This document shows, one piece after another, positions 4,793 to 46,302 of a DNA stretch of 64,000 nt; positions within the stretch are counted from its first letter, which is position 1, and each line of letters starts with the position of its first letter. Below the pieces are notes generated by a model. It did no database searches, was not told the DNA's origin, and saw nothing but the letters and a program-made list of their open reading frames with translations. Origin of the DNA: Armatimonadota bacterium. GTDB taxonomy: Bacteria; Armatimonadota; UBA5829. The position numbers and the translations under genes were made by a program. The DNA is taken from positions 2,058-66,057 of the forward strand of contig JAAYKE010000071.1 in the NCBI GenBank assembly GCA_012522575.1. The letters are read 5' to 3'.

Positions 4793-4825
4793 ACCCGGCA
4801 GAAATCTCCAATGGAGCGATATGAT

Positions 4826-13495: not shown

Positions 13496-14439
13496 TCCGG
13501 CATAACTGGAAATATAAACTACTGGCGCTTTTGGTAGCTCTGATTCTATGGACTTACGTCAATTCGGAGCGCAACCCGCAATCGCGTCAGACCTTCAGAG
13601 TGCCGGTGGATGTAATAGAGGTCAAAAAAGGGCACGTGGCGCAGCTTGGCGTCACCAAAGTTGCCGTAACGGTGGTTGGCCTCAAGACCGCCGTCGAGGC
13701 TGTGGCAAAAGAGGATATAGAAGCTTTTGTAAACGTGCGCTCTATGCCTCAGGATAAAAGCGTCTCCGAGGCTCAAATCCCCGTTCAGGTGCGCTTGCCC
13801 CGCGCGATAGCCGCTGATCTCGAAGTAACCGCAAACCCGCGCACATTGCAGGTGCGCGTAGAAGCTCTGGGAGAAAAACAAATACCGGTGACGGTCGGTT
13901 TCTTTGCCGAACCGCCTCCGGGATACTCCTACGGCACTCCCATACTCTCCCCTGCTGCCGTGGTTGCCTCCGGACTAGTGACCCAACTCTCAAAAATCAA
14001 CTCCGCTTCCATTACCATATCGAGCGATTTGGCAAGTTCGCCCAATGGCGACTACTGCGAGGTATCGGCTCTCGATAAAGAGGGAAATTCGGTCAGCGGA
14101 GTAAGCGTGCGGCCGGAGAAAATACGTGTCAAGCTGGGGATGGTCGAGATGCCGGCGACTAAGACCGTTATCGTCAGCCCAATATTCAGCGGCCAGCCGA
14201 AATATCCCGCCAGGGTTCAAAAATATACCGTCGTACCATCGTCGGTGACTTTGGAGGGCAAACCGAGCAGGCTTTCGAGCATAAGCGCAATAGCGACGGA
14301 CGCGATTTCACTGGAAGGGGCCGAGGCTACCATTGTTCGCGACATTTCCCTTGAAGTCCCATCCGGGACCAGGCCGACCGGATCAAGAACGGTCAGGGTC
14401 ACCGTCCACATTGCCGCGCCGCATCAGCCGGCGGAGTAG
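13492..14439 (+). CDS. cdaR: CdaA regulator CdaR (YbbR-domain protein)
   Basis: NWKYKLLALLVALILWTYV anchor followed by repeated YbbR-like beta domains; 4-nt overlap with cdaA. Confidence 0.88.
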   Translation: MIRHNWKYKLLALLVALILWTYVNSERNPQSRQTFRVPVDVIEVKKGHVAQLGVTKVAVTVVGLKTAVEAVAKEDIEAFVNVRSMPQDKSVSEAQIPVQVRLPRAIAADLEVTANPRTLQVRVEALGEKQIPVTVGFFAEPPPGYSYGTPILSPAAVVASGLVTQLSKINSASITISSDLASSPNGDYCEVSALDKEGNSVSGVSVRPEKIRVKLGMVEMPATKTVIVSPIFSGQPKYPARVQKYTVVPSSVTLEGKPSRLSSISAIATDAISLEGAEATIVRDISLEVPSGTRPTGSRTVRVTVHIAAPHQPAE

Positions 14440-33625: not shown

Positions 33626-34312
33626 CTACGGAGCCACTTCGCGCTTGCAGTAGGCCTTAATTGCAGCTTTAATTATCTCCACCGCGTCATCGTTGGTGAA
33701 GTTATCCATCCACAGGCTCAGGTCGAAGATAGCCGCGTCAGCTCGTTCCCGACCGAATAGGCTGATTAGAAACTGTCGGCGGCTGCGGTCGGATTCCCGC
33801 AGTTTTCGGCGGGACTGCTCGGCGGTGAGACCCTCAAATTGAATCATATTCTGGATTCGCAGGTCGTCGGACTCGTCGATTCGAATCTTCAACGCATCGG
33901 GCAGTATGAGGTTTGCCCCTCGCCCAAGAATTATAGCGTTTCCGAGGCGGGCTATAGACTTCACCGCCTTTGCAAGATGCCTGGCATAGATAAATCCGGC
34001 CATCTGCTCATCCCCGAACAACCCACGCGCAAAAAGTTCGATTTCGGATATTGTATGCTCATCAAATGCATTTACAACCTTCTGCGACACCCGGGCATTC
34101 TGAGCCATGGAGTTGACCAGTTCCTTGTCCCACAGGCTCCAGCCGAGATCATCGGCGAGTTTTTGTGCAATAATGCGCGCTCCGCTACCCATCCGCCGTG
34201 AAATAGTAACCACATTACTTATACACGGCTTCTCAACAAACTGCTGGCTATGCTTGGCAAGCTCAGACTTACGCATCTGTTCGTTGACTAATTGCTCAAT
34301 GTGTCTCGCCAT
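33626..34312 (-). CDS. Cytidylate kinase-like family protein
   Basis: VVTISRRMGSGARIIAQKLADDLGWSLWDKELV..AIILGRGANLIL..IRI. Confidence 0.8.
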   Translation of the reverse strand: MARHIEQLVNEQMRKSELAKHSQQFVEKPCISNVVTISRRMGSGARIIAQKLADDLGWSLWDKELVNSMAQNARVSQKVVNAFDEHTISEIELFARGLFGDEQMAGFIYARHLAKAVKSIARLGNAIILGRGANLILPDALKIRIDESDDLRIQNMIQFEGLTAEQSRRKLRESDRSRRQFLISLFGRERADAAIFDLSLWMDNFTNDDAVEIIKAAIKAYCKREVAP

Positions 34313-34456
34313 ATCACCCACGACCTCCGTTTCATTGGTTTCCCTGCCCGCATTATACAACATTAAGTCAATCGCTACCTGAAAAGCGACTGAACGCGAG
34401 CAATTACAGCCGATTATGGGCGTTCGATGCGAGCAGAACACGCCATATATTCTAAA

Positions 34457-35800
34457 TTAGGCGGCTTTCTTGAGAGGCGCGGACTCGTCGAGCAGTTCCT
34501 CCATTTCCACTCCCATATCCTGACAGGCCTTTTGCAGCAGATCGCGATGGCTTTTGGCGTCGGCGGGATATTTGGCCGTGCCGATACGCGCCTGCGCGCC
34601 GATCTTGACGGTCTTGCGGCCCGACTCAATCTCTATTCCGCTTACTATGCCCGCCAGTCTTTCGGCCACAACTTTTGAATGGCCGGCGGTGTGTGGCAGA
34701 ATCAACGCGAAGCTGGTTGGCCCGAATCGGGCGACGATGTCCATCTTGCGCACCGAACTGCGTATTGTCTGCGCGGCGGCGTAGAGTATATCATCCAGCC
34801 TGACAAGGCGCAGATACTTCTCCGTATCCTCCGGCAGGCAGATGTCGACGAGCACCAACGCCAACTTGCAACGCGCCCTGCAGGCCCGGCTGACTTCCTC
34901 GTCGAGCCTCTTTTCAATATATAAGCGGTTATACAGGCCGGTGACACTGTCGATTACGGTGACGTCCTGCCTGGGCTGCACGTTTACCGCCGGACGCGCT
35001 GAGACCAGGGTGCGCTGGATTTGCGTATCGCGGATTTCCTCGGTGGCCAGTATCTTTTTGAGCTTCTTTGTTCCGTTTCGGAGTATATGGGAGACATAGT
35101 TGCAGCTTATGCCCAACATTTTCGCGATCTCGGTTTGATTGTGTCCCTTATAGTAGTGCTCCGAGATGACGTCCTGTTCGATGTCTTTGAGACGCTGCAT
35201 CGCAGTTTCGAGGACGATTTTATCCTCCAAAGGAAGCTGGAATGTGACGACTTTATCATCTTTTATCTTTTCAGGGTCGCGGCGATTGGGAGAATCGTCG
35301 TTGTCCCCGTCAAGAGAACTTACTTTGAAAACTTCGCGGGTGGTAAGCAGATCGGCGACAGCGCTCTCCGGCATCTGCATCACATCGCCGATTTCTTTCT
35401 CGGTGGGCTGCCTGTTAAGCTTATGACTCAGCGATTCGATCACGCGGGTCATTTTCTGGTTCAACTCCTGCAGCCAGGCAGGTTCTTTTATAATCTTGCC
35501 TTTATCTCGCAAGTAGTGCTTAATCTGCCCGATTATTAGATGGGTGGCGTAGGTGGAAAACTTGACGCCTTTCGAGGCATCATATCTGTCCACCGATGCA
35601 ATCAAGCCAATGTAACCTTCCTGGCAGAGATCCTCGATTGGCTCGCAAGCGCCGACGAACCTGCGTCCGATGCTTTCCACAAGATTGCCATACTGCAAAA
35701 CAATCTCATCCCTGATTTGAGGGTCCTGGCATTCCCCATACGCCGCAAGCCGCTGTTGAATCTCTTCTTCAGTTAGTTTCTTTACGCTTCCTACAAGCAT
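34457..35800 (-). CDS. SigB/SigF-type sigma factor fused to a degenerate GGDEF domain
   Basis: Residues ~25-255 carry sigma regions 2-4 (EDLCQEGYIGLI..DRYD..GVKFSTYA..GQIKHYLRD; QTEIAKMLGISCNYVSHIL). The C-terminal domain reads DSVTGLYNRLY..LDEEVSR..LALVLVDI..RKMD-IVARF-GPTSF-ALILP..AERL..IGTAKYP. Confidence 0.9.
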   Translation of the reverse strand: MLVGSVKKLTEEEIQQRLAAYGECQDPQIRDEIVLQYGNLVESIGRRFVGACEPIEDLCQEGYIGLIASVDRYDASKGVKFSTYATHLIIGQIKHYLRDKGKIIKEPAWLQELNQKMTRVIESLSHKLNRQPTEKEIGDVMQMPESAVADLLTTREVFKVSSLDGDNDDSPNRRDPEKIKDDKVVTFQLPLEDKIVLETAMQRLKDIEQDVISEHYYKGHNQTEIAKMLGISCNYVSHILRNGTKKLKKILATEEIRDTQIQRTLVSARPAVNVQPRQDVTVIDSVTGLYNRLYIEKRLDEEVSRACRARCKLALVLVDICLPEDTEKYLRLVRLDDILYAAAQTIRSSVRKMDIVARFGPTSFALILPHTAGHSKVVAERLAGIVSGIEIESGRKTVKIGAQARIGTAKYPADAKSHRDLLQKACQDMGVEMEELLDESAPLKKAA

Positions 35801-35882
35801 CTGCTTCCTCTCTGCATGCCGGTTTCATCTTGAACATGCCGGGTTATAAGTCGTCAACCATCCTGATCCTGGGCCGACGCCG

Positions 35883-37094
35883 TTAGTTGATATTGCTGAT
35901 CAGTTTGAATATAGGCGCCATAATCGACACCGCGATAAAGCCGACTATTCCTCCCATTGTGACTATCAGACAAGGTTCAATGAGAGAAGTCAGCGTCTTA
36001 ACCGCGTTTTCAACCTCTGAGTCATAGAAATCGGACACCTTGGCGAGCATCTCCGACAAACGTCCTGTCTCCTCGCCGATGTCGATCATGTGAGTTACCA
36101 TCCCCGGAAACAGGCTGCTTTGCGCAAGCGGAGTGCTGATCTTCTGTCCCTCGCGAATCGCGTTTCGCGCGTTCTCGATTGTTTGCGCTATAACTCTATT
36201 ACCGGACGTTTCTCCAACAATCTCCAGCGATCTCATCATAGGAACGCCGCTGGCGATGAGCGTGGCAAAGGTGCGGGAAAAACGCGAGATAGCCATTTTT
36301 TGCACCAATTCACCAACAATGGGCAGTTTCAATTTCAGCATATCGATCTGCCGGGCGCCGGTGTCGGTCTGGCTATACCATTTATAAAACATAAACCCGC
36401 CAAACGCTGCGCCAAAGCCGATATACCAGTAACGCTGGGCAAACCCGCTCAAACCAAATAGAAATCGCGTCGCAGCGGGCATTTCAACGTTCATCGAATC
36501 GAAAATCTCTTTGAACTTGGGCAGCACGAACAACAGAAGGGCCACCACCATCAGCAGCGCGAACACCAGCACCAAAATAGGGTAGATCATCGCGCCCTTG
36601 ATCTTGCCGCGAATCTCCTGTTCGTCTTCCAAAAATGTGGCCAGCCTGTCGAGGATTTTATCGAGAATACCGCCGGTCTCAGCCGCCTTGACCATGTTCA
36701 CATAGAGTCGAGAGAACACGTTTGGGTGCTTGCTGAAGGCATCGGTAAGGCTAAGCCCGCCTTTGACGTCTTTTTTGCAGGACGCGATAACCGGCTTGAG
36801 CGCAGGGTCCTTTGTCTGGCCCTCGAGGATATCAAGACACCTAACAATCGCTACGCCCGCGTCTATCATGGTTGCAAACTGGCGGCTGAACACGACCATC
36901 GAGGCCAGTTTTACCTTTTTTGACGAAGTGCCTTTGGCCGAGCTTTTGGCACGTGATTTGTCCTCAGAAACGCTAAGGACGTGGTAGCGCTGTTCGTGCA
37001 GTTTGGCCAGCACCAACTGTTCGTTTTCCGCCTCTATTCTCCCTTTGACAGACTTGCCGCCGGGATCGACTGCTGAATATGCATAAGTAGCCAT
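35883..37094 (-). CDS. pilC: Type IV pilus platform protein PilC
   Basis: FSRQFATMIDAGV, VNMVKAAETGG, KIKGAMIYP, IGEETGRL, SLIEP. Confidence 0.93.
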   Translation of the reverse strand: MATYAYSAVDPGGKSVKGRIEAENEQLVLAKLHEQRYHVLSVSEDKSRAKSSAKGTSSKKVKLASMVVFSRQFATMIDAGVAIVRCLDILEGQTKDPALKPVIASCKKDVKGGLSLTDAFSKHPNVFSRLYVNMVKAAETGGILDKILDRLATFLEDEQEIRGKIKGAMIYPILVLVFALLMVVALLLFVLPKFKEIFDSMNVEMPAATRFLFGLSGFAQRYWYIGFGAAFGGFMFYKWYSQTDTGARQIDMLKLKLPIVGELVQKMAISRFSRTFATLIASGVPMMRSLEIVGETSGNRVIAQTIENARNAIREGQKISTPLAQSSLFPGMVTHMIDIGEETGRLSEMLAKVSDFYDSEVENAVKTLTSLIEPCLIVTMGGIVGFIAVSIMAPIFKLISNIN

Positions 37095-37101
37095 TAGTCA
37101 A

Positions 37102-38274
37102 TTAACCTCCCTGGAGGAATCGCTTGTAGTTCTCCCTGTCGATTGCTCGCGCCATAGCCTCTTCATTGGTAATTCGACCAAATCGGTAGAGGTCTGCGAG
37201 CACTTTATCCATTGTCTGCATGCCGAACTGGGCGCCGGTTTCCAGCGCGCCGTATATCTGATAGGTTTTGCCCTCGCGGATCAGGTTTCTGATGGCGGAT
37301 GTGGCAACCATAATTTCGATCGCGGCAACTCGTCCGCCTCCCAGTTGCGGGCACAGTTGTTGAGCTACAACGGCCTCCAGACTGTTTGAAAGCTGCACTT
37401 TAATCTGGTCCTGCTGATGCGGCGGGAAGACGTCGATGACTCGGTCGACCGTCTGCGGAGCGTTGCGGGTATGCAGCGTGCCAAATACAAGGTGACCCGT
37501 CTCGGCAAGGGTAAGAGCGGCGGCGATTGTTTCAAGGTCTCGCATCTCACCGATGAGTATCACGTCCGGGTCCTCGCGCAGAACAGCTCTAAGCGCGTTC
37601 TCGAAGGAGTCCGTATCGGTGTTCAGTTCGCGCTGGTTGATCATTGCCCGTTTGTGCCGGTGCAGATACTCAATCGGGTCTTCGATGGTCATTATATGAA
37701 CCGGCATCTCATTGTTGATCGCGTCGATCATGCAGGCGATGGTGGTAGATTTGCCGCTTCCGGTAGGGCCGGTGACAAGGATCAGCCCGCTGTGCCTTTG
37801 GGTAAGCTCTCTTATCACCGGCGGCAGCCCCAACTGCTCAAAGCTGGGTATCTGATCGGGGATCGCTCGCAAAGCCGCTCCAACGCTTCCACGCTGGCGG
37901 TAGACATTGACCCTGAATCTCCCTACCGCGCTGACGCCATAGGAAAAGTCCAGTTCGCGGGTCTTTTCGAACCATTGAACCTGGTCTGAGCTTAAAATAT
38001 CATATATCAATCGCTGGCTGTCATTAGGCTGCAGGGGAGCATAGTCCAGATGTTGAAGAGAGCCGTCGATACGCACCACCGGGGGCAGTCCCACCGTGAG
38101 ATGCAGGTCAGATGAGCTTCTCTCACATGCGTCACGGAGAAGATCGTCGAGGTGAAGTTCGCCTATTGGTTTGACATTGCCCTGGGGTTGATAATCCCCG
38201 TTCAGCTCCTCCAACGGCATGCCTTGCATATTATGTCCTCCAGTCAAGGTTCGATTGTCGGTTGCCTTTGTCAT
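37102..38274 (-). CDS. pilT: Type IV pilus retraction ATPase PilT
   Basis: GPTGSGKSTT, TIEDPIE, GEMRD, AETGHL, and the AIRNLIRE motif. Confidence 0.95.
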   Translation of the reverse strand: MTKATDNRTLTGGHNMQGMPLEELNGDYQPQGNVKPIGELHLDDLLRDACERSSSDLHLTVGLPPVVRIDGSLQHLDYAPLQPNDSQRLIYDILSSDQVQWFEKTRELDFSYGVSAVGRFRVNVYRQRGSVGAALRAIPDQIPSFEQLGLPPVIRELTQRHSGLILVTGPTGSGKSTTIACMIDAINNEMPVHIMTIEDPIEYLHRHKRAMINQRELNTDTDSFENALRAVLREDPDVILIGEMRDLETIAAALTLAETGHLVFGTLHTRNAPQTVDRVIDVFPPHQQDQIKVQLSNSLEAVVAQQLCPQLGGGRVAAIEIMVATSAIRNLIREGKTYQIYGALETGAQFGMQTMDKVLADLYRFGRITNEEAMARAIDRENYKRFLQGG

Positions 38275-38325
38275 GTCGAGCGCGGCGCATAATGTGATTA
38301 TTCGCCTTTGCTGACCGGCATTTGT

Positions 38326-40056
38326 CTAACCGGCGTAAATAACTCTCAGACATTCTTCCAAAGTTGTCTGACCAAGCAGTATTTTGGCCACGGCATCATC
38401 TTTAAGGGTCTTCATGCCCGAATCCATTGCGGCCTCCCGCAGAACGTGGGCGGAAGACTTTTGCAGCACCAGGTCTCTTACTCGATCGGTCACGACCATC
38501 AGCTCGTAAACTCCCAGCCTGCCCTTATAACCGGTCCCGCGGCAAAAGTCGCAGCCTCTGCCACGATAGAATGTAATTTTTGTGTCGCTGTCCAGTTCAA
38601 TGCCGAGCCTGCCGACCGCATCTCTCGGCGGAGTATACTGTTCTTTGCACTTTGGACATACCACCCTCACCAGCCTCTGCGCCAGCACTCCGATCACGGA
38701 CGAGGCAATAAGAAACGGCTCAATGCCCATCTCCACAAGTCGGGTCATAGCCCCGGGCGCGTCGTTTGTATGCAGCGTCGAAAGAACCAGGTGACCGGTC
38801 AGCGCGGCCTCGGTTGCGATTATGGCGGTCTCGGCGTCGCGTATCTCACCCACCATCGCAATATCCGGGTCCTGGCGCAGCATAGTGCGCAGCCCGGCCG
38901 GGAACGTCAGCCCTGCGCGGTTGTTGATCTGCACCTGCGTAAGTCCCTCAAGCTCATACTCCACCGGGTCTTCAATTGTCAGGATGTTTTTCTCGCCGGA
39001 GTTCAGCTTGGAGAGCACGGAATACAGGGTAGTCGATTTTCCGCTTCCCGTCGGGCCGGTGACCAATATGATCCCGTAGGTGCGGGAAATCAGGCCTTCG
39101 AACTTCTCCATAGTTTCCGGCAGCATACCAAGTTTGTGCAGCCCAACCGAAACCGAGCTTTTATCCAATATTCTCAGGACGATCTTTTCCCCAAAGACCG
39201 ATGGCAGGGTGGATACTCGGAAGTCAAACTGCTTTCCGTCTATCACCGCTCCTATTCTGCCGTCCTGCGGAGAACGTTTTGTTGCGATGTCCATCTCCGC
39301 CATGATTTTGAATCGCGATACCAGAGAGGACTGGACTTTTTTGGGAACGCGCATTATCTCATTGAGAACTCCGTCAACTCGAAGCCGCACTCGCACATAG
39401 TCTTTGGCCGGCTCGATATGTATGTCACTGCCGCCGTCGCTTATTCCGCGGGAGACTATAAGATTTGCCAGCTTAATAACCGGGGCCTCTTCGCTAAGCT
39501 CCCTGAGTTGCTCAATGGAGATATCCTCATCATCTCCCTCATCCGATCCCGCGTCAAAGTCGATCTCCCCGGTGTCGAACTCCTTAATGACGCTGTCTAC
39601 CTGCTCAGAAACATTTATTTGAGTTCGATAGAGACGGGCAATAGCCGTTATTATCTCTTCTTCCAACGCAATGCCCGGCTCCACATCGGTCCCGGTCATC
39701 AACCGCACTTCGTCGATAGCGAAGATATCGAGCGGGTTTTTCATCGCGATGGTCAGTCTGCCGTTTTTTCTGGCAACAGGCAGCACTTTGAGCTTGCGCG
39801 CCACGCTCTCCGGCACGAGCTTGATGACCGCAGGGTCTATTTCCGCCTCCTGAAGGTCGACAAAGGGCACTCCCCACTGCTCTCCGAGACCCCTGACGCG
39901 GTCCTTCTCGGAGATAAACCCCATGCTCACAAGAACATCTCCCAATGCTTCCTGCCGTTTGAGGAGTTTTTGCCTCTCCAGAGCCTGATTGAGCTGATCG
40001 CGCTTGATCAGACCCAACCTCAAAAATATTTCTCCAATTGCTTCTGTTTTTTGCAT
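38326..40056 (-). CDS. pilB: Type IV pilus extension ATPase PilB with N-terminal MshEN-like domain
   Basis: SDIHIEP, PQDGRI, GPTGSGKSTT, LRQDPD, CPKC..GCDFC zinc knuckle, and tandem xLGxxLxxxGxI..L..L..Q motifs at the N-terminus. Confidence 0.93.
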   Translation of the reverse strand: MQKTEAIGEIFLRLGLIKRDQLNQALERQKLLKRQEALGDVLVSMGFISEKDRVRGLGEQWGVPFVDLQEAEIDPAVIKLVPESVARKLKVLPVARKNGRLTIAMKNPLDIFAIDEVRLMTGTDVEPGIALEEEIITAIARLYRTQINVSEQVDSVIKEFDTGEIDFDAGSDEGDDEDISIEQLRELSEEAPVIKLANLIVSRGISDGGSDIHIEPAKDYVRVRLRVDGVLNEIMRVPKKVQSSLVSRFKIMAEMDIATKRSPQDGRIGAVIDGKQFDFRVSTLPSVFGEKIVLRILDKSSVSVGLHKLGMLPETMEKFEGLISRTYGIILVTGPTGSGKSTTLYSVLSKLNSGEKNILTIEDPVEYELEGLTQVQINNRAGLTFPAGLRTMLRQDPDIAMVGEIRDAETAIIATEAALTGHLVLSTLHTNDAPGAMTRLVEMGIEPFLIASSVIGVLAQRLVRVVCPKCKEQYTPPRDAVGRLGIELDSDTKITFYRGRGCDFCRGTGYKGRLGVYELMVVTDRVRDLVLQKSSAHVLREAAMDSGMKTLKDDAVAKILLGQTTLEECLRVIYAG

Positions 40057-40257
40057 TTGTCGATTATCAGTTGATGGTTAATGCCTGTCGGTTATTGCCG
40101 GATGGTCGGTTGTCATTTTTGGCGAACTGAGATATCAGCTTTCGTCTATCCTGTTTTTCTACCGCTGCCCCGCCGACGTTTGCCAACGGGGCAGCACCAG
40201 GCGTTAGCTATGATCGCTCGCCCTGGTTACAAAGTATAGACAACCGGCGGTAAATCA

Positions 40258-43035
40258 TCAGTCTTCCACGATGGACGCTGTGATAAATACAACGACCTCA
40301 GAGCGTTCTTTTGTTTTGTCCCTGTGTCTGAACAAGTGGCCAAACAGGGGGATGTCTCCCAGAAGCGGGACCTTTCTCAGAGAATCCAGCTCGCTATCGA
40401 GAATCAATCCGCCAATGACTATCGTGTCCCCGTTGTTGACACGCACAACGTGGTCGGTGAACCTTCGGGTAATCACCGGCAGGGTGATTCCGGCCTCAGA
40501 CCTCATGCGTTCGTCGAGTTTGAGGGTGCTGACCTCAGGATGCAGGTTCAGGGTTATGTTGCCATCCTCAGACACGCTTCCGACAACCGAAAGCTGGACT
40601 CCAATATTTGCCGTATCTGTAGTCACAGTCGGCGCTCCATTGGTGGCGACGCTGATCTGTGTCACATACCGAATCTCATCGCCGACGAAGAACTGTCCCG
40701 GCTTTCCTTCAAGACAGATGAGGCTCGGAGATGCAAGCAGGGTTCCATCGCCGTTGCTGATCAAAGCATCCAGCGTTGCCCCGAAGTCGACGGGCTGTCG
40801 TCGCCATCGATTGCGAGACACCTCCACTTTGCTGAAATCTCCCCAGTTCCAATCCAGCCCGAGTTTCTTCTCCCCGGACTCTGAAAGCGCGGTAAACTTG
40901 GCCTCGATCTTGATCTGAGGGGATTTTACGTCCAGCATTTCGATAATGGATATCGCCTTCTGCACGTCATATTTGCGGCCAAATAGGATAATCAAACGAG
41001 AAAGACTGTCGACGGCCTGTGCATTCATGGCGGTCTGCTGCTTGACGTTGGTTTGATCCGTGCCGGCCTCTCGAAGCTCGCCATCTTTATTGGACCCTGC
41101 GCCACTGCCGGCAGGACTTGATCCGCTGCCGGTGTCGTCTTCATCCGGATCCATCCCGGCGCTCTCAATAACCACATTCGGTGTCAGCTTGCGGACCGTT
41201 GTGATTATATTTTTCAAGCCAACATATTTGAGCTTATAGGTTAGCAGGTGATTGTCTTCGGTTGGCAGGGGCACGTCGAACTGTGCGGCCAGGTCCATCG
41301 CCTTCTGAACGTCCTGGTCACGACCCATTATAATCAGCGCAAAACTGTGCGAATTTTTCTCCGTGTCGAACAGTCGGGTGGTGTTTTCCCCGCTGAATAC
41401 GTTAGCCGGTATCAGCTTCTGCCCGGCAGTCGAAGGCGCATTGAAATATGATGGAGCCAGCATCACCCTCACTCCCATCACGGCGGACATAAGGGTATTT
41501 GCCAGTTCTACAGTGTTTAAGTATTTGACATTGTAGAGGCTGATCTTCTTTTGCGATGCCTGATTGCTCATCTCGTCTTCGACTTGCGATATGAACTCTT
41601 TGGCAGCTTCGATGCGGTCCGGCGTGCCGGAAAGAATGATCATGTCACTCGACGGCGAATCGGTGGCCGCGGAGCTGCTCACAGTCTCTGTGGCTTTGAG
41701 GGCGCCGCTGCTTTTCGCGCTTGAAGTGCCTCTTGAGCTTGTCTGGTCTGCAGCCTGACTCCCTGCAGCCGCCTCCCCTTTTTCATCGGCAGAGGTTGGC
41801 GTATTTACCGGCCTGGCTTCGGAGCCATCATCGGTCTGCCCTTGAGTTTCTCCAGAGGAGCCTTTTTCATACTCCGTTTTAATGTCGTGCTTGCGAGCCT
41901 TGCTGGCGCGGACGCTTATTTTACTGGAATGCACTTGCGGGAAGCGTATTTTAAGCATTTCCAGCACGTCGTCGGCGCTCACGTAGTCAAGGGTGACGAT
42001 TTCGACCGTGCTCCCTGCCAGGCTTCCTAATGAGGTGAGCGAACCCACCAGATAGGTGTGTTTGTCTTTGACATAAGTATATCCACTGAGGCGGGTGACA
42101 TATTCCAGAGCTTCGTCGATCGTGACGCCATCAAGCGAAACGGTGACCTTGCCCGCGACATCGTTACCCACGACAATATTCTCTTTGCTCTGCACCGAGA
42201 TCGCCTTCAGCACATCTTCTATATCGGCCCCGAGGAAGTTGACGGATACCGACTTCCCGGCTCCGACAGATGCGGGCACGGAGGCGGGCTTGACAGCCTG
42301 CACAACCGGCTTGGCGGTCGGCTTGTTCACGTTTGATGGCTGGCGGCTGACCGCAATCGGCTGAACGGGCGCAGTCGGAGGCAGCGACACCGGCGGCGCA
42401 ATGGCCGTCGATTTGCCCGGCAGAGGCGTTATTTTTGCCGTAGGCTCCGCATATTGAGCGACCGGCAGGACTTCGCTTAGCGAACCGCTGCCGTTGATTT
42501 TTATGTTCTGTGTCGGTGCGGCAACGTTCACCGCAACGGCCTCGGTTGGAGGCGCGGCATTTGTCGGCTCGGACGACTTTACTGACGCAGCAGGGTTTGA
42601 TCCGAACTTCCACACCGAAATATCCACGCGGGTTTTTGTCTCATTCCACGACGTAGAATAGTTCAGGCGGCTGGCAGTATTGAACACTATCCTTGTGGTC
42701 GGCGGCTTTTCCTGGAATCGAGCATAGCGGACGTTGTGAATCTTTCCGCTGCGAATGGACACCATTCGACCCTGGGCGTTGAGTTGCCCGGCGAATTGAA
42801 ATGCGATGAATCGGCCTGTGCTTGATGAGATCACTCCCATTTTGAGCGGCGCGTCGCCCTGCACCGACACGATCACGCGATCGGCCTTGTCGGCAACGTT
42901 TACACCGGTGATGCTGACCGCTGCTGCCTGGCTGACAAGCAGCATAGCCAGGATCACAATCACTCCTCCACGCAGTGACATCAAGGCGCCGATTCGCCGA
43001 GTTCTGGATTTAGCGGCGAACACGTTAGCTGGCAT
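40258..43035 (-). CDS. pilQ: Type IV pilus secretin PilQ (AMIN + N-domains + secretin)
   Basis: AMIN-like N-terminus, SVNFLGADIEDVLKAIS, and the secretin signature GGLI..KVPLLGDIPLFGHLFR..VVFITASIV. Confidence 0.9.
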   Translation of the reverse strand: MPANVFAAKSRTRRIGALMSLRGGVIVILAMLLVSQAAAVSITGVNVADKADRVIVSVQGDAPLKMGVISSSTGRFIAFQFAGQLNAQGRMVSIRSGKIHNVRYARFQEKPPTTRIVFNTASRLNYSTSWNETKTRVDISVWKFGSNPAASVKSSEPTNAAPPTEAVAVNVAAPTQNIKINGSGSLSEVLPVAQYAEPTAKITPLPGKSTAIAPPVSLPPTAPVQPIAVSRQPSNVNKPTAKPVVQAVKPASVPASVGAGKSVSVNFLGADIEDVLKAISVQSKENIVVGNDVAGKVTVSLDGVTIDEALEYVTRLSGYTYVKDKHTYLVGSLTSLGSLAGSTVEIVTLDYVSADDVLEMLKIRFPQVHSSKISVRASKARKHDIKTEYEKGSSGETQGQTDDGSEARPVNTPTSADEKGEAAAGSQAADQTSSRGTSSAKSSGALKATETVSSSAATDSPSSDMIILSGTPDRIEAAKEFISQVEDEMSNQASQKKISLYNVKYLNTVELANTLMSAVMGVRVMLAPSYFNAPSTAGQKLIPANVFSGENTTRLFDTEKNSHSFALIIMGRDQDVQKAMDLAAQFDVPLPTEDNHLLTYKLKYVGLKNIITTVRKLTPNVVIESAGMDPDEDDTGSGSSPAGSGAGSNKDGELREAGTDQTNVKQQTAMNAQAVDSLSRLIILFGRKYDVQKAISIIEMLDVKSPQIKIEAKFTALSESGEKKLGLDWNWGDFSKVEVSRNRWRRQPVDFGATLDALISNGDGTLLASPSLICLEGKPGQFFVGDEIRYVTQISVATNGAPTVTTDTANIGVQLSVVGSVSEDGNITLNLHPEVSTLKLDERMRSEAGITLPVITRRFTDHVVRVNNGDTIVIGGLILDSELDSLRKVPLLGDIPLFGHLFRHRDKTKERSEVVVFITASIVED

Positions 43036-43651
43036 TTGGAACTCCTCCTAATTTGACGTGGATCCTACGATCTTTACAGGCCAAGACAACACCGTCCGAT
43101 GAAACGGAAAGCACTTTATAGCCCCCGTCGATGAACTGGCCTTTCTTTACAACATATTTAACTGAACCGTTGCGAATTATGGCGACGTTTTCCTCGCCAC
43201 ATATAATACCTGTGAGCACAAATTCCGGGTCTTCCGGCTCGTCGGAGAGCACTACACTGACCGATGGCGCCGCATCCGAACTGAAACTGCCGAACGGGAT
43301 CATCGGAGCCAGTTTGGTTGACTTAGCCGTCGAAAGCGGGCCGGACGGGGCAACCGATGGAGCAGGCGCAGCGCGATCCTCGCTTAGGACGCTTGCCAGT
43401 CTTTGCACAGTGAAAGGATCTCTGCGCGGAATTGGAGCGCTCAAGTTTGGATAGTCCGCCGTATTGGGCAGCGGTTTTGACTGCAACTGCATAACGGCTT
43501 TAGCGGCGATTGACCTGTCTATCTTGCTAACCGGAGGCGTCATTTCCGTCTCCGGCGGCTTGGTTATCGTAAACGTCACGTAGCCTATGCATATAAGCAC
43601 GAGCAAACCGAGCACAGCCAATTGTTGAGTCTGCTTTTTATCCTGCTTCAT
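43025..43651 (-). CDS. PilP-like / T2SS-C-like accessory protein
   Basis: N-terminal TM, RRDPF, and C-terminal FVLTGII..VAII..YVVKKGQ..YKVLSVS; it lies between pilO and pilQ. Confidence 0.65.
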   Translation of the reverse strand: MKQDKKQTQQLAVLGLLVLICIGYVTFTITKPPETEMTPPVSKIDRSIAAKAVMQLQSKPLPNTADYPNLSAPIPRRDPFTVQRLASVLSEDRAAPAPSVAPSGPLSTAKSTKLAPMIPFGSFSSDAAPSVSVVLSDEPEDPEFVLTGIICGEENVAIIRNGSVKYVVKKGQFIDGGYKVLSVSSDGVVLACKDRRIHVKLGGVPNAS

Positions 43652-44357
43652 TTTTGGCCTCCGCCGGAATCCCCGCGCTGTCATCGGATTGCTTTCGCTT
43701 GACAGGAGTGGCTTCCTTGAATACGAAAGCTGTTGCGTTGATCTTGATGCTAAGCTGCGGGTTGCCGGTCGCGTTTATGCCTGATGTAGGGCTCATTTCA
43801 ATTGAGTTCACGGCAATTATTTTCGGGAAAGTTGTGAGCTTATACAAAAAATCAAGCGCATTCATATACTGGCCTTCAAGCTCGAGATCTACCAGTAGAT
43901 CGTCGTATGGCTTGGGCGGCTCCGGTTTTTCCTCAGTTGCCGCGCCCGATGAACCTGAGTTCTCAGCCGAGGCCATCGCCGCCTGTTTTTCTGCCATTTT
44001 GGCGTTGGGATCGGGAGGCTGAGGGCGAACGCCCAGCACCTTGAGGCTCACTGCTCCTCCCAACTGCTCAAGCTGTTTCAACAGGGTCGGCACATACGCT
44101 TGAGTTGAGACCGATGATTCCAGACTGCGGATTTGCGCGCGTGTGTCGAGATATCGGTTCTCGGTGCTCATCTGGGTCTGCGCCACTTTCAGGCTGTCGC
44201 GAACATTTGCCTCGACCTGTTTTTTCTCCGCCTCGACAGACCTTACTTTTCCGACAGCGGCCAGGCAGGACAGCAGGCAGATCACGAATACCAGCCCGGC
44301 GGCAATCGCGAGCAATGCCACTCCCTTCTGGCTTGGCTTAAGATTGATTTGCGCCAC
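43638..44357 (-). CDS. pilO: Type IV pilus alignment protein PilO
   Basis: N-terminal TM, coiled coil, VPTLLKQL, LELEGQY..LDFLYKL..KIIAVNSIEM. Confidence 0.8.
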   Translation of the reverse strand: MAQINLKPSQKGVALLAIAAGLVFVICLLSCLAAVGKVRSVEAEKKQVEANVRDSLKVAQTQMSTENRYLDTRAQIRSLESSVSTQAYVPTLLKQLEQLGGAVSLKVLGVRPQPPDPNAKMAEKQAAMASAENSGSSGAATEEKPEPPKPYDDLLVDLELEGQYMNALDFLYKLTTFPKIIAVNSIEMSPTSGINATGNPQLSIKINATAFVFKEATPVKRKQSDDSAGIPAEAKNEAG

Positions 44358-44940
44358 TTGCCGTCACCTCTTTCTCCTTTTGCTCCAGGTTGAGCATAAC
44401 TGCGCCGATCTCAAACTCAATAGCCTCGGATTTGCCCTGGCTTGATTTTTGCGTATAATGCAGATCGACGCTCTTAAAATACGGGTTGGAGTGCAGCCTG
44501 AGCATGGTCTCTCCGACTCTGGCCTGCTCGTCGGTCATCCCCGCGATATTAAGTGTCATATCCTTGCTGCCCGCCGAGTTCGTGGTGGAAATCCGTGTCA
44601 GCCAGGCGGACTCAGGCACGCTCTGAGTAAGCCGATCCAGCGCGTTATACCAGCACATGGTCTTGGCCATTGCTTCGTTGAGCAGATCGACTTTTGGCTT
44701 TAACTCCGAAGTTTTGTTCTCTAGCGCCTGAATGGTTTTGATCTTTGGCGCCAGTGTCTGCAGTTGCGCATTAAACTCGGCGATTGTGGCGCGGGTGGTT
44801 ATGGTTTTGGTAAATACCCATCCTCCCAAAGCGACCACGAACACCAACTCCGCCAGGATCAACAGCGCCAGCCTGCGCATCGCATGTTCGAGCCGGCGTT
44901 TCTCTGCGCGCCGGGGAGCAATCATATTTATGGAAGGCAT
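44338..44940 (-). CDS. pilN: Type IV pilus alignment protein PilN
   Basis: MPSINMIAP, TM, coiled coil, LTQSVPESAWLTRI. Confidence 0.85.
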   Translation of the reverse strand: MPSINMIAPRRAEKRRLEHAMRRLALLILAELVFVVALGGWVFTKTITTRATIAEFNAQLQTLAPKIKTIQALENKTSELKPKVDLLNEAMAKTMCWYNALDRLTQSVPESAWLTRISTTNSAGSKDMTLNIAGMTDEQARVGETMLRLHSNPYFKSVDLHYTQKSSQGKSEAIEFEIGAVMLNLEQKEKEVTASGANQS

Positions 44941-44966
44941 CAGCGATACTCCTTTTGTCTGGGCGT

Positions 44967-46091
44967 CTAAGCGACCGCCTTCGACGTGTTCTCGGGGATT
45001 AGCTCCTTGAGCGCAAGCCCCGTGCTTACGGCGAGCACTGAACCATGTTCGTCGATAAAATCTTTGTTTACCGCCTCCGTTTTGATAGCTGTCTGCTCAA
45101 AAACGTGGGCAACTTCGACATTAATGCCGAGCTTGTTGGAAATATAAGTCCCCAATCCGGGAATGCGGGCAGTGCCTCCGGTGACAACGATCTTGTCGAC
45201 CCCTGCATCGGCGCTGCCTTCCGGGAACTGCGACTGATAGAAGTGGATTGAGCGCCGAATCTCGCGGATCAACTCGTCAAGCAGGGGTTGAACCACCCGC
45301 CAGCATTTGTTATCCCCGCCGACCGCGTTTAACTCGTCTATGGGATATTGGGCGGTCATCTCGCGCTTTGCCCGTTCGGCGTCGTCGAATCCGCCTCCCA
45401 GCAGCGATCTGATAGAGTTGGTAAAACTATCCCCGGCTATGGGAATGTTGCGCGTGAGGGCGAAGTCACCTTTGCTTACTATATCGACATTTGTATGGCT
45501 TGCGCCGATATCGATCAGGGCGATTGTGCTGTTGAGATATTCATCGGTGGCATTGAACTCAACAAGCGCTCGAATCAACGCAAAAGACTCTATGTCGATG
45601 ACCAAAGGCTCAAGCCCGGCGGATTCCAGCGTGGCTACGCGACTATCGATCATATCGCGCGGAGCCGCAACCAGCATAACATTCATCTGATTGGGGTCTT
45701 CGGCCTCGCCGAGTATCTCAAACTCGACTATGCTGTCCTCCATAGAAGAAGAAATGAATTTGCCGGCCTCATACTTGATGGATTTGCGCAGCATCGCCTC
45801 TGGCATCTTCGGGAACTGTACCTGGCGCACGATCACCTGCGAGCCTGATATCGCGCAGACTGCTCCGCCGGCCTTGATGTCGGCGTCACGCAGCATATTG
45901 CGGATCTCCTGGCTGACATCAACAATGTTGATTATGCAGCCATCCTTTATGGCTTCACTGGGAGTCGGCGCGACTGCGGCATTTACAACTGTCCAGCCGT
46001 TGGGGGTCGGCTCGATCTCGACCGCTTTTATCGATGAGCTGCCGATATCAATGCCAACCGTGACCTCTTTACCGAAAAATGAGCTGATCAC
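44967..46091 (-). CDS. pilM: Type IV pilus assembly protein PilM (FtsA/actin-like)
   Basis: VGIDIGSSSIKAVE, IDIGASHTNV, TGGTARIPGL, STGLAL. Probable GTG start at 46091 with GGAGG upstream. Confidence 0.92.
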   Translation of the reverse strand: MISSFFGKEVTVGIDIGSSSIKAVEIEPTPNGWTVVNAAVAPTPSEAIKDGCIINIVDVSQEIRNMLRDADIKAGGAVCAISGSQVIVRQVQFPKMPEAMLRKSIKYEAGKFISSSMEDSIVEFEILGEAEDPNQMNVMLVAAPRDMIDSRVATLESAGLEPLVIDIESFALIRALVEFNATDEYLNSTIALIDIGASHTNVDIVSKGDFALTRNIPIAGDSFTNSIRSLLGGGFDDAERAKREMTAQYPIDELNAVGGDNKCWRVVQPLLDELIREIRRSIHFYQSQFPEGSADAGVDKIVVTGGTARIPGLGTYISNKLGINVEVAHVFEQTAIKTEAVNKDFIDEHGSVLAVSTGLALKELIPENTSKAVA

Positions 46092-46302
46092 GAGCCTGTA
46101 ACCTCCTCGCATTGGCGAGCGAATCAAAACAATAAACCTATCCTCATAAAGGATTATCGTCATTTATCCGCCCAACTGTAGTTCTGTTTGGAGATACATC
46201 GACATTACAGTAAAAATTACCGGCAATATGGAATGAGCGCAGGGCAGGCGACGGATGATGTGGAAGTAGAATGTGCAGGCAGACAGGGCAAAGGAAGCAA
46301 GA

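What the first reader, a model, noticed from the sequence alone, without database searches (positions are those of the whole stretch)
34457..35800. SigB/F-type sigma factor fused to a catalytically dead GGDEF domain with an intact c-di-GMP I-site, at the end of a type IV pilus operon
Seen in sequence: one continuous 447-aa ORF carries complete sigma regions 2-4 and then a GGDEF-fold domain. The active-site motif is GPTSF (34709-34723) instead of GG(D/E)EF, while RKMD (34739-34750) sits exactly five residues upstream, where the RxxD I-site lies. The gene follows pilC on the same strand after an ~80-bp gap. Established: degenerate GGDEF domains that keep RxxD act as c-di-GMP receptors (PelD, PopA), and c-di-GMP controls Streptomyces sigma-WhiG indirectly through the anti-sigma RsiG. 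Inference: this may be a one-component sigma factor gated directly by c-di-GMP that couples pilus motility or sessility to transcription. I do not know of a characterised example of this fusion.
Basis: partly seen in the sequence, partly recalled or inferred. Interest (0 to 1): 0.88.

Follow-up and report, generated by a model that had tools for sequence, protein, structure and literature searches.

The report
Sigma factor with built-in c-di-GMP sensor
The last gene of a type IV pilus cluster encodes a transcription sigma factor fused to a dead cyclase domain that keeps every residue needed to bind the messenger c-di-GMP; the fusion is conserved across the phylum Armatimonadota and no study of it was found in the papers searched.

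Summary
ORF 34457-35800 (minus strand, 447 aa) carries sigma-70 regions 2, 3 and 4 followed by a GGDEF domain. It lies 82 nt after pilC, at the end of a pilMNOPQ-pilB-pilT-pilC cluster.

It is not an assembly artefact. Relatives were found in 267 species-level genomes and more than 1000 protein clusters. Every relative examined in detail has both domains in one ORF, and nearly all named ones are Armatimonadota.

The active-site motif is never GG(D/E)EF in any member and drifts freely. The metal and GTP contact residues are also lost. In contrast, all five positions equivalent to published c-di-GMP inhibitory-site contacts are invariant (P = 8e-7).

Three features were not in the original finding:
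- A near-invariant C-terminal Ala-Ala, which may be a ClpXP-type degron.
- pilB-pilT-pilC-sigma synteny, kept down to 44% identity.
- A CTAAAG-N15-G(G/C)C(A/G)ATAAT promoter upstream of the gene where it stands alone, with the same -10 motif enriched upstream of pilB where it is in the operon.

The best reading is a self-contained, probably autoregulated, c-di-GMP-gated sigma factor for pilus genes. Ligand binding and the direction of control are untested. I found no published example, so I rate it a new variant of known kinds.

The parts
34457..35800 (-). Whole gene: 447-aa sigma factor fused to a degenerate GGDEF domain
   Evidence: ORF; domains. It is 100% identical to public cluster P0001, and more than 1000 fused relatives exist.
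35495..35701 (-). Sigma region 2 (residues 34-102). Contains the motif KFSTYATHLIIGQIKHYLRD, which resembles sigma-B/F (comparison from memory).
   Evidence: Pfam PF04542, 64 bits. Most columns are invariant in alignment A2.
35294..35467 (-). Sigma region 3 (residues 112-169), followed by a disordered 3.2-type linker (residues 155-183)
   Evidence: Pfam PF04539, 33 bits. pLDDT is below 50 for residues 155-183.
35054..35203 (-). Sigma region 4 (residues 200-249), with the invariant helix-turn-helix ISCNYVSHILRN
   Evidence: Pfam PF04545, 52 bits; invariant columns.
34958..35053 (-). Linker (residues 250-281). The region 4.2 helix continues unbroken to about residue 268 and carries the conserved motif TEEIRDxQ(I/M)QR.
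   Evidence: The AlphaFold model has one helix from 233 to 268. T253, E255 and Q260 are invariant. Foldseek matches coiled-coil-plus-GGDEF structures 3i5c and 6ttr.
34514..34957 (-). GGDEF-fold domain (residues 282-429), catalytically degenerate
   Evidence: Pfam PF00990, 68 bits. Foldseek TM-score 0.75-0.83 to solved GGDEF domains. pLDDT is about 84-92.
34877..34909 (-). First GGDEF helix, with an invariant stripe R298, E301, E302, R305, R308. R305 corresponds to PleD R313 and R308 to WspR R198, the secondary inhibitory-site arginines.
   Evidence: Residue mapping; invariance. Roles of the residues come from PMC7288161 and PMC2270323.
34739..34750 (-). RKMD: the primary inhibitory-site RxxD motif (R351, D354)
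   Evidence: Aligned to RxxD of solved cyclases and to PleD R359/D362. Invariant.
34709..34723 (-). GPTSF, at the position of the catalytic GG(D/E)EF motif
   Evidence: Aligned to GGDEF/GGEEF. More than 50 different pentapeptides occur across the family and none is canonical.
34658..34660 (-). R381 (in AERL), equivalent to PleD R390, the third residue of the primary inhibitory site
   Evidence: Mapping; invariant in A2.
34460..34465 (-). C-terminal Ala-Ala on a disordered tail; candidate ClpX-type degron
   Evidence: AA in 115 of 117 clusters and in nearly all complete locus proteins (3 exceptions end in VA). The tail is otherwise poorly conserved and has pLDDT below 50.
35853..35878 (-). Small hairpin in the pilC-sigma spacer with two GGA motifs in its loop (GUCGGCC-CAGGAUCAGGAU-GGUUGAC)
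   Evidence: Read from the sequence. Similar GGA-loop hairpins occur in L001, L004 and L011. Function not tested.
35883..40056 (-). pilB-like (38326-40056), pilT-like (37102-38274) and pilC-like (35883-37094) genes. These are probably co-transcribed with the sigma gene.
   Evidence: Pfam hits. Synteny in about 38 of 80 loci. The pilC-sigma spacer is 0-43 nt in six loci.
40092..40099 (-). GGCAATAA, a candidate -10 element 35 nt upstream of the pilB ATG
   Evidence: The same octamer class occurs in 9 of 21 pilQ-pilB spacers, 10 hits against 0.62 expected.
46153..46181 (-). CTACAG-N14-GACGATAAT, a candidate promoter upstream of pilM
   Evidence: It is one of the two best matrix hits in the whole window; coordinates. 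Its score is not above shuffled controls.
40258..46091 (-). pilM, pilN, pilO, pilP-like and pilQ (secretin) genes of the same cluster
   Evidence: Pfam hits. The pilM start was revised to the GTG at 46091, which has an AGGAGG ribosome-binding site.

Best explanation
The gene encodes a group-3 alternative sigma factor. By sequence it is closest to SigB/SigF. Fused to its C-terminus is a GGDEF domain that has lost catalysis but keeps the complete c-di-GMP inhibitory site.

Shown here:
- The fusion is real, ancient and under purifying selection across Armatimonadota.
- Every catalytic determinant is gone.
- The four-residue inhibitory site of PleD, plus the WspR-type arginine, is invariant.
- In several orders the gene is the last gene of a pilB-pilT-pilC unit.
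- Where the gene stands alone it carries its own CTAAAG-N15-GGCAATAAT promoter. The same -10 motif is enriched in front of pilB where the gene sits in the operon.

Inferred:
- The sigma factor reads that promoter class. It therefore drives its own gene and the pilus machinery genes.
- An intercalated c-di-GMP dimer binds R351/D354/R381 of one molecule and R305/R308 of a second. This is how it cross-links GGDEF domains in PleD and WspR.
- The GGDEF domain hangs on a rigid helix that continues directly from the -35-reading helix of region 4.2. Cross-linking would therefore dimerise or immobilise region 4 and change the factor's ability to join core polymerase or read promoters.
- By analogy with RsiG-WhiG, the likeliest outcome is that high c-di-GMP switches the factor off. 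The sign is not determined.
- The invariant C-terminal Ala-Ala on a disordered tail suggests turnover by a ClpXP-type protease. Ligand-induced dimerisation could expose or hide that tail.
For: - Architecture and coordinates.
- Family size and taxonomy: 120 of 120 best hits are fused. Relatives occur in 267 species genomes, and nearly all those with a phylum-level name are Armatimonadota. Fifty-six distant 50%-identity clusters are fused. Named members are Armatimonadota.
- Residue mapping to PleD and WspR. The published roles of those residues come from PMC7288161 and PMC2270323.
- Invariance: 11 of 149 GGDEF columns are invariant, and these include all five I-site equivalents (hypergeometric P = 8e-7).
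- Active site: never canonical. The equivalents of PleD D327, N335, K442 and R446 are not conserved or are absent.
- Fold: the GGDEF fold and a continuous helix 233-268 appear in the model. Foldseek matches stalk-plus-GGDEF structures.
- Synteny.
- Promoter: GGCAATAAT occurs upstream of 28 of 45 solitary genes against 0.64 expected, and the full bipartite motif was found at 32 of the 45. The -10 class is enriched in pilQ-pilB spacers (P = 1.3e-9, no hits on the opposite strand). The two best window hits precede pilB and pilM.
- Precedents: c-di-GMP controls a sigma factor for type IV pili through RsiG in Rubrobacter, using TAAA/GCCGATAA promoters (PMC8325347). Cyanobacterial group-3 SigF directly drives pilA1 and its own gene (PMC2758279). 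PopA is a degenerate-GGDEF receptor that binds c-di-GMP through RxxD (PMC12564702).
Against: - No binding, transcription or expression data exist, and no RNA runs hold the gene.
- The AlphaFold inter-domain arrangement is not confident (pTM 0.39), so the coupling between the GGDEF domain and region 4 is a structural argument only.
- The window's own promoter-like sites score no higher than the best hits in shuffled sequence.
- In syntenic loci the full bipartite matrix ranks the pilB spacer first in only 2 of 21 (P = 0.018). The promoter motif is absent from about half of those spacers.
- The promoter resembles the flagellar sigma-28 consensus. The protein itself scores only 103 bits on the FliA/WhiG model and 51-62 bits on solved FliA and WhiG.
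- No pilin gene lies in the window.
- The C-terminal Ala-Ala is lost in the most distant members, and protease recognition is inferred from general knowledge only.
Confidence: 0.6

Rival explanations
1. The GGDEF domain is a ligand-independent dimerisation, scaffold or partner-binding module. It could be a fused anti-sigma-like or localisation domain, and c-di-GMP plays no part.
For: Some degenerate GGDEF domains have no nucleotide role (general knowledge). The domain sits on a stalk-like helix, as in dimeric cyclases. No diguanylate cyclase or phosphodiesterase gene was found nearby.
Against: The most conserved positions of the domain are exactly the five c-di-GMP contact equivalents (P = 8e-7). 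The rest of the domain, including the former active site, drifts. A pure scaffold would not be expected to keep RxxD, the R390 equivalent and the R313/R198 equivalents.
Confidence: 0.13
2. The conserved inhibitory-site pocket binds a different nucleotide, for example another cyclic dinucleotide or (p)ppGpp. The sigma factor would then report a signal other than c-di-GMP.
For: Solved PleD structures with both c-di-GMP and (p)ppGpp exist (entries 9g85 and 9g86, listed). The window also encodes a c-di-AMP synthase pair.
Against: The RxxD plus two-arginine constellation is the documented c-di-GMP dimer site. No evidence was found that it prefers another ligand.
Confidence: 0.08
3. The sigma-GGDEF protein is not autoregulated and does not read the CTAAAG/GGCAATAAT promoters. 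A separate FliA/WhiG-type sigma factor transcribes it and the pil genes, and its own regulon is something else.
For: The promoter is close to the flagellar consensus TAAA-N15-GCCGATAA. The protein is closer to SigB/SigF than to FliA/WhiG. The Fimbriimonas genome paper lists one 'fliA' gene, whose identity was not checked.
Against: The motif follows the gene into two different genomic contexts: directly upstream when solitary, and upstream of pilB when in the operon. That pattern is the signature of autoregulation, as shown for cyanobacterial SigF. From memory, the -10 GGCAATAAT also fits the Bacillus sigma-F pattern GGnnAnAHTR. No second group-3 sigma gene was seen in the neighbourhoods examined.
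Confidence: 0.25
4. The domain is still an active diguanylate cyclase with an unusual motif, so the protein couples transcription to local c-di-GMP synthesis.
For: Rare cyclases with altered motifs such as AGDEF retain activity (PMC3974145, title and abstract).
Against: The pentapeptide varies without constraint: GPTSF, SDTCF, QDNVF, DKDIF and more than 50 other forms. The equivalents of the metal-binding Asp, the guanine-binding Asn and the phosphate-binding Lys/Arg are absent or unconserved.
Confidence: 0.02
5. The fusion is an assembly or annotation artefact, or a decaying pseudogene.
For: The window comes from a metagenome-derived organism. A few long-read loci (L024, L053) show broken matches.
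Against: The same single ORF is found in hundreds of independent assemblies from many studies, with conserved length of about 445 aa. Column conservation is strong in both halves.
Confidence: 0.01

Closest known systems
(RsiG)2-(c-di-GMP)2-WhiG switch of Rubrobacter and Streptomyces (PMC8325347, PMC7005675)
   Same: A group-3 sigma factor is placed under c-di-GMP control. In Rubrobacter its targets are type IV pilus operons, read through TAAA/GCCGATAA-type promoters. The promoter found here, CTAAAG-N15-G(G/C)C(A/G)ATAAT, is of that style.
   Different: In that system the sensor is a separate anti-sigma coiled-coil protein (RsiG), limited to Actinobacteria. Here the candidate sensor is a GGDEF domain fused covalently to the sigma factor, and no RsiG-like gene is adjacent. 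The sigma part is closer to SigB/SigF than to WhiG.
Degenerate-GGDEF c-di-GMP receptors PopA (Caulobacter) and PelD (Pseudomonas)
   Same: The active site is dead and the RxxD inhibitory site is retained as the ligand-binding site. PopA also links c-di-GMP to ClpXP proteolysis.
   Different: PopA is a receiver-receiver-GGDEF adaptor and PelD is a membrane GAF-GGDEF protein. Neither is a transcription initiation factor. Here the output domain is a complete sigma factor, and the putative degron sits on the receptor itself.
Product-inhibited diguanylate cyclases PleD and WspR
   Same: The same fold and the same inhibitory-site residues are present: PleD R359, D362, R390, R313 and WspR R198. A helical stalk precedes the domain. 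The proposed cross-linking by an intercalated c-di-GMP dimer copies their mechanism.
   Different: Those are active enzymes in which cross-linking stops catalysis. Here there is no catalysis to stop, so the same contact would be used as the signal output.
Cyanobacterial group-3 SigF (PMC2758279)
   Same: It is an autoregulated group-3 sigma factor dedicated to type IV pili and motility. The second-best NCBIfam model for this protein is the SigF model PRK07408, at 157 bits.
   Different: SigF has no C-terminal sensor domain. It recognises TAGGC/GGTAA promoters, which are not found here.
ECF sigma factors with fused C-terminal regulatory extensions (ECF41/42-type; sigma-J with a SnoaL_2 domain, PMC5766207)
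   Same: They follow the same 'one-component sigma factor' logic: a regulatory domain is fused after region 4.
   Different: Those are group-4 factors without region 3, and their extensions are SnoaL-like, TPR or Cys-rich domains. None is a GGDEF domain or a second-messenger sensor.

Membership tests
Sigma-70 family, group 3 (SigB/SigF/SigG-like) | Regions 2, 3 and 4 are all present in order | tested here: met
   Pfam r2, r3 and r4 all score above their cut-offs.
Sigma-70 family, group 3 (SigB/SigF/SigG-like) | Scores above the curated cut-off of the SigB/F/G subfamily model TIGR02980 | tested here: not met
   168.9 bits against a cut-off of 234.35. It is the best model, but the protein is an outlier. 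The nearest solved relatives are sigma-F (103 bits) and SigB (96 bits).
Sigma-70 family, group 3 (SigB/SigF/SigG-like) | Partner-switching regulators (anti-sigma kinase, STAS antagonist) encoded next to the gene | tested here: not met
   No conserved neighbour of that kind was found in 80 loci. The search covered only about 8 kb on each side.
Sigma-70 family, group 3 (SigB/SigF/SigG-like) | Binds core RNA polymerase and directs promoter-specific initiation | not testable with these tools
   Only the conservation of regions 2.2-2.4 and 4.2 supports it.
FliA/WhiG (sigma-28) class | Scores above the cut-off of model TIGR02479 | tested here: not met
   103.4 bits against a cut-off of 189.6. WhiG scores 62 bits and FliA 51 bits among solved chains.
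FliA/WhiG (sigma-28) class | Cognate promoters of the TAAA-N15-GCCGATAA type at target genes | tested here: inconclusive
   Such promoters lie upstream of the gene itself (32 of 45 solitary loci) and of pilB (9 of 21). Which sigma factor reads them is not shown.
Diguanylate cyclase (active GGDEF enzyme) | GGDEF fold | tested here: met
   PF00990, 68 bits. Foldseek TM-score 0.75-0.83.
Diguanylate cyclase (active GGDEF enzyme) | GG(D/E)EF catalytic motif | tested here: not met
   The window has GPTSF. No canonical motif occurs in 117 close clusters, about 77 locus proteins or 56 distant clusters.
Diguanylate cyclase (active GGDEF enzyme) | Metal- and GTP-binding residues (equivalents of PleD D327, N335, K442, R446) | tested here: not met
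   The D319 equivalent is only 46% conserved. There is no Asn equivalent. The 'QAKxxGRN' motif is replaced by QKACQDMGVEM.
Degenerate-GGDEF c-di-GMP receptors (PopA/PelD type) | RxxD motif five residues before the former active-site motif | tested here: met
   R351-K-M-D354, then 5 residues, then G360. Invariant across the family.
Degenerate-GGDEF c-di-GMP receptors (PopA/PelD type) | Additional inhibitory-site arginines (equivalents of PleD R390 and R313, WspR R198) | tested here: met
   R381, R305 and R308 are invariant.
Degenerate-GGDEF c-di-GMP receptors (PopA/PelD type) | Measured, specific c-di-GMP binding | not testable with these tools
   This needs biochemistry.
Sigma factors with fused C-terminal regulatory extension (ECF41/42-like) | Group-4 (ECF) core lacking region 3 | tested here: not met
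   Region 3 is present. The protein resembles these factors only in design logic.

The most novel reading that the evidence does not exclude
This would be the first one-component sigma factor that senses a second messenger directly. An intercalated c-di-GMP dimer would cross-link the fused GGDEF domains of two sigma molecules. That would switch off (or on) an autoregulated sigma factor acting as master regulator of type IV pilus machinery across Armatimonadota. A C-terminal Ala-Ala degron would make the switch irreversible through ClpXP-type proteolysis. A GGA-loop RNA hairpin would add translational control.
Probability: 0.4. Interest if true: 0.88.

Novelty: new variant of a known kind. Interest (0 to 1): 0.77.

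Why it matters
Known routes from c-di-GMP to transcription use riboswitches, classical transcription factors such as FleQ, BldD and VpsT, or an anti-sigma factor (RsiG). A sigma factor carrying its own c-di-GMP receptor would be a fourth and more direct route. It would also show how an enzyme's product-inhibition site can be reused as a signalling input after catalysis is lost.

The case is experimentally tractable. The protein is soluble and about 50 kDa. Point mutants can be defined from the mapping (R351A, D354A, R381A, R305A, AA to DD). A candidate promoter is in hand.

It would also give a first handle on gene regulation and surface behaviour in Armatimonadota. This phylum is widespread in soils, hot springs, bioreactors and wastewater but is almost unstudied genetically.

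Tried and rejected
- Rfam scans of the window and of nine related loci found only one tRNA and no riboswitch.
- A search for RNA sequencing runs that hold the gene found none, so co-transcription with pilC could not be checked.
- A search for pilin genes in the window found no prepilin-type FTLIE-like motif.
- A search for conserved downstream or upstream partner genes (anti-sigma, STAS, cyclase, phosphodiesterase) found none. The cytidylate-kinase-like gene downstream is shared only with the closest relatives.
- The bipartite promoter matrix applied to the window gave top hits at pilB and pilM, but their scores are within the range of shuffled sequence. I therefore treat these as suggestive only. 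Applied to syntenic loci, it supports the pilB spacer only weakly.
- I looked for the cyanobacterial SigF promoter (TAGGC/GGTAA) in the pilC-sigma spacer and did not find it.
- The AlphaFold model gives good domains but no reliable inter-domain packing (pTM 0.39). It therefore cannot say whether the GGDEF domain docks on sigma regions 2 or 4.
- An attempt to show the gene in a cultured type strain was inconclusive. A MAG labelled Chthonomonas calidirosea carries it (L070), but no hit named as strain T49 appeared.
- Ten literature searches found no description of a sigma-GGDEF fusion. The library lacks most subscription journals, so absence is not proof.
Full report
**1. The observation**

One search lists one uninterrupted ORF at 34457..35800 on the minus strand (447 aa). 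It starts with ATG, preceded by GAGAGGAAG at the right distance for a ribosome-binding site.

Pfam finds Sigma70_r2 (residues 34-102), Sigma70_r3 (112-169), Sigma70_r4 (200-249) and GGDEF (282-429, 68 bits, E 8.6e-19). All are above their curated cut-offs.

NCBIfam ranks the SigB/F/G subfamily model first at 168.9 bits, below its 234 cut-off. A SigF model follows at 157 bits, and FliA/WhiG scores 103 bits.

Alignments to solved cyclases place RKMD on the RxxD inhibitory site and GPTSF on GGDEF/GGEEF.

Upstream on the same strand lie these genes:
- pilC-like, 35883-37094, 82 nt away.
- pilT-like, 37102-38274.
- pilB-like with an MshEN domain, 38326-40056.
- a secretin, 40258-43035.
- pilP-, pilO- and pilN-like genes.
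- pilM.

**2. Is the fusion real?**

All 120 best hits in the 5.8-billion-protein collection are about 445 aa, cover 77-100% of the query (95% or more for all but four shorter or truncated entries) and carry both sigma and GGDEF Pfam domains. Identity runs down to 56%. Every hit that carries a taxon name is Armatimonadota, apart from one labelled only 'bacterium'.

A scan of one genome per species (GTDB) found 267 genomes with a relative. The 80 loci kept are MAGs labelled Armatimonadota, Chthonomonadales, Chthonomonadaceae or Fimbriimonadales, or left unclassified ('uncultured bacterium'). One is labelled Chthonomonas calidirosea.

A profile search of 1.84 billion representatives found 56 clusters at the 50%-identity level with both domains among the best 150 hits. 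Named members of these distant clusters are again Armatimonadota.

A second search seeded from the Chthonomonas-type protein gave 965 further hits at E <= 1e-30, and all 120 listed are fused. One is labelled Chloroherpetonaceae, possibly a binning error.

The fusion is therefore an old, phylum-wide gene and not an artefact.

**3. What is conserved in the GGDEF half?**

I checked the mapping to Caulobacter PleD against PDB sequences. For WspR I used the register of chain 3bre. The correspondences are:
- Window D284 = PleD D292.
- R305 = PleD R313.
- R308 = WspR R198.
- R351/D354 = PleD R359/D362.
- G360-F364 = PleD G368-F372.
- R381 = PleD R390.

The literature states that the c-di-GMP inhibitory site is formed by R359, D362 and R390 of one domain plus R313 of the neighbouring domain. 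It binds an intercalated c-di-GMP dimer that cross-links the two domains (PMC7288161). In WspR, R242 and R198 from a symmetry mate play these roles (PMC2270323).

In the 117-sequence alignment A2, only 11 of 149 GGDEF columns are invariant: D284, R298, E301, E302, R305, R308, R351, D354, P369, R381 and Y411. All five inhibitory-site equivalents are among them (hypergeometric P = 8e-7).

Across 77 complete proteins from species genomes, down to 43% identity, RxxD is always present. In the 56 distant clusters, RxxD is kept in 51, R305 in 54 and R381 in 51.

The former active site behaves in the opposite way. More than 50 different pentapeptides occur, among them GETSF, SDTCF, QDNVF and DKDIF. 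None is GG(D/E)EF in any member. The equivalent of the metal-binding Asp is only 46% conserved. The guanine-binding Asn has no counterpart. The phosphate-binding 'QAKxxGRN' motif is replaced.

The AlphaFold model folds the domain confidently (pLDDT 84-92), and it matches solved GGDEF domains at TM-score 0.75-0.83.

The domain is thus a catalytically dead GGDEF fold in which selection acts on both halves of the c-di-GMP cross-linking site.

**4. Other features of the protein**

(a) The helix of region 4.2 runs on without a break to about residue 268. It carries the conserved motif TEEIRDxQ(I/M)QR. Foldseek also matches stalk-plus-GGDEF structures such as GCN4-WspR and DgcB. The sensor is therefore mechanically close to the -35-reading module.

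(b) The last two residues are Ala-Ala in 115 of 117 close clusters and in all but three of the complete locus proteins; the exceptions end in Val-Ala. The rest of the tail is the least conserved part of the protein and is predicted to be disordered. From general knowledge, ClpX recognises disordered C-termini ending in Ala-Ala, as in the ssrA tag and CtrA. C-terminal poly-Ala tails are ClpXP degrons (PMC8138137). I read the tail as a likely degron. It is lost in the most distant members.

**5. Genomic context**

tblastn of the window's proteins against the 80 loci shows pilB-pilT-pilC-sigma in that order in about 38 loci. These extend down to 44% identity and include Fimbriimonadales.

The pilC-sigma spacer is 0-43 nt in six loci, so co-transcription is likely. 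Genes downstream are not conserved.

In Chthonomonadales-type loci the gene stands alone with no conserved neighbours and no anti-sigma or STAS gene. This fits the 'seemingly disorganized genome' reported for Chthonomonas (PMC4959169, abstract).

The window has no other GGDEF domain and no pilin gene.

**6. A promoter that travels with the gene**

Upstream of the solitary genes, k-mer enrichment found GGCAATAAT in 28 of 45 loci against 0.64 expected.

Aligned on that motif, 32 loci show the bipartite element CCTAAAG-N15-G(G/C)C(A/G)ATAAT, 65-226 nt before the start codon. Four of them have a textbook GTAAA-N15/16-GCCGATAA.

This is the flagellar sigma-28 style. It is the same consensus that was used to find WhiG-dependent type IV pilus promoters in Rubrobacter (PMC8325347). 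From memory, the -10 element also fits the Bacillus sigma-F pattern.

In loci where the gene is in the pil operon, the pilC-sigma spacer shows no enrichment. The pilQ-pilB spacer, however, holds the -10 octamer class in 9 of 21 loci: 10 hits against 0.62 expected (P = 1.3e-9), with none on the opposite strand.

In the window, the two best matrix hits over both strands precede two pil operons:
- GGCAATAA at 40092-40099, 35 nt before the pilB ATG.
- CTACAG-N14-GACGATAAT at 46153-46181, before pilM.

Three caveats apply. The window scores are no higher than shuffled maxima. The full matrix ranks the pilB spacer first in only 2 of 21 loci. The identity of the sigma factor that reads the motif is not shown.

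The simplest reading is positive autoregulation with the pilus machinery in the regulon, as for cyanobacterial SigF, which drives pilA1 and its own gene (PMC2758279).

**7. Mechanism proposed**

The protein would be a group-3 sigma factor that transcribes its own operon and the pilus genes. An intercalated c-di-GMP dimer would bind R351/D354/R381 of one molecule and R305/R308 of another, cross-linking two GGDEF domains as in PleD and WspR.

Through the rigid helix, this would constrain region 4 and alter holoenzyme formation or promoter use. The Ala-Ala tail would give ClpXP-type turnover, possibly conditional on ligand.

The sign of the effect is open. In RsiG-WhiG, c-di-GMP inhibits the sigma factor. 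In other systems, c-di-GMP promotes pilus assembly.

Rivals are listed separately. The strongest is that another sigma-28-type factor reads the promoter.

**8. Comparison and novelty**

The closest known systems are:
- RsiG-(c-di-GMP)-WhiG, which has the same logic and the same target organelle but uses a separate anti-sigma sensor.
- PopA and PelD, which have the same kind of receptor domain but different outputs.
- PleD and WspR, which have the same site but are active enzymes.
- Cyanobacterial SigF, which has the same biological role but no sensor.
- ECF sigma factors with C-terminal extensions, which share the fusion logic but belong to a different sigma group and carry different domains.

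Ten full-text searches and a 2025 review of c-di-GMP effectors (PMC12564702) gave no example of a sigma factor fused to a GGDEF domain.

I classify the finding as a new variant of known kinds.

**9. Verdict**

It is extended by four results:
- the secondary inhibitory site;
- the degron-like tail;
- the conserved synteny;
- the promoter that travels with the gene.

Ligand binding, its effect on transcription and the regulon remain to be shown experimentally.

The organism occurs in anaerobic digester, bioreactor and wastewater metagenomes.

Noticed in passing
L034, L036, L042, L043, L045, L048, L050-L052, L054, L064, L073 and others: 5'UTR of the solitary sigma-GGDEF genes, about 20-40 nt before the start codon: A conserved RNA hairpin. 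The outer stem varies and covaries. The core is nearly invariant: CG(U)ACGAUGGGAACG(AAGG). This places a GGA in the apical loop, and a GGAG Shine-Dalgarno sequence follows. The layout resembles a CsrA-type translational control site. fold_alignment gave 8 pairs, 5 of them with compensatory changes. There was no Rfam match.
   Followed up: partly
window 35853-35878 (-): The pilC-sigma spacer forms a small hairpin whose loop carries two GGA motifs (CAGGAUCAGGAU). Similar GGA-loop hairpins occur in the same spacer of L001, L004 and L011.
   Followed up: no
window 35815-35842 (-): A direct repeat CCGGCATG x2, 20 nt apart, lies just before the sigma gene's ribosome-binding site. It is conserved in the closest relatives L001-L003 but not beyond. 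Its function is unknown.
   Followed up: no
window 40164-40226 (-): Two adjacent GC-rich hairpins lie right after the pilQ stop codon: CCAGGGCG...CGCCTGG and GCTGCCCCG...CGGGGCAGC. Their sequence is conserved in L002, L005, L008, L011 and L014, with compensatory changes in the inner stem of the second hairpin. No U-tract follows and there is no Rfam match. They may be a U-less terminator or attenuator, or an mRNA 3'-end element between pilQ and pilB.
   Followed up: partly
window 40057-40130 (-); also L002, L003, L008: Short repeats of the type (A)ACCGACA / CTGATAA lie between the candidate -10 element and the pilB start codon. L003 has about six tandem copies. pilB has no obvious Shine-Dalgarno sequence here. 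Copy-number variation of these repeats could tune expression.
   Followed up: no
window 38326-40056 (-): The pilB-like ATPase has an N-terminal MshEN domain (PF05157). From memory, this module binds c-di-GMP in other species. Its two motif copies (AIGEIFLRLGLIKRDQLNQALERQ and ALGDVLVSMGFISEKDRVRGLGEQ) have Ala where the leading Arg of the RLGxx motif is expected. Binding is therefore uncertain.
   Followed up: no
window 44967-46163 (-) and 33626-34441 (-): The mechanical ORF starts are probably too far upstream. pilM more likely starts at the GTG at 46091, behind an AGGAGG ribosome-binding site. The cytidylate-kinase-like gene more likely starts at the ATG at 34312 (MARHIEQL), as in L002. That would leave about 145 nt after the sigma stop codon.
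   Followed up: partly
PDB PleD chains: Caulobacter PleD itself ends in ...VVGKAA. This is the same Lys-Ala-Ala ending as most members of this family (LKKAA in the window). It may be coincidence or a shared tail feature; I did not examine it further.
   Followed up: no
window 12623-14439 (+): A DAC-domain protein followed by a YbbR-domain protein. This looks like a CdaA/CdaR-type c-di-AMP synthase pair, so the organism probably uses c-di-AMP signalling as well.
   Followed up: no
window 56531-58477 (-): Two adjacent ORFs each match a different part of DUF6785: profile positions 2-178 and 198-498. This may be one gene split by a frameshift, or a genuine two-gene arrangement.
   Followed up: no
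window 1088-2629 (+) and 4811-5476 (+): An IS-type transposase (DUF772 plus a DDE domain) and a LexA repressor lie at the left end of the window. This is ordinary chromosomal context.
   Followed up: no
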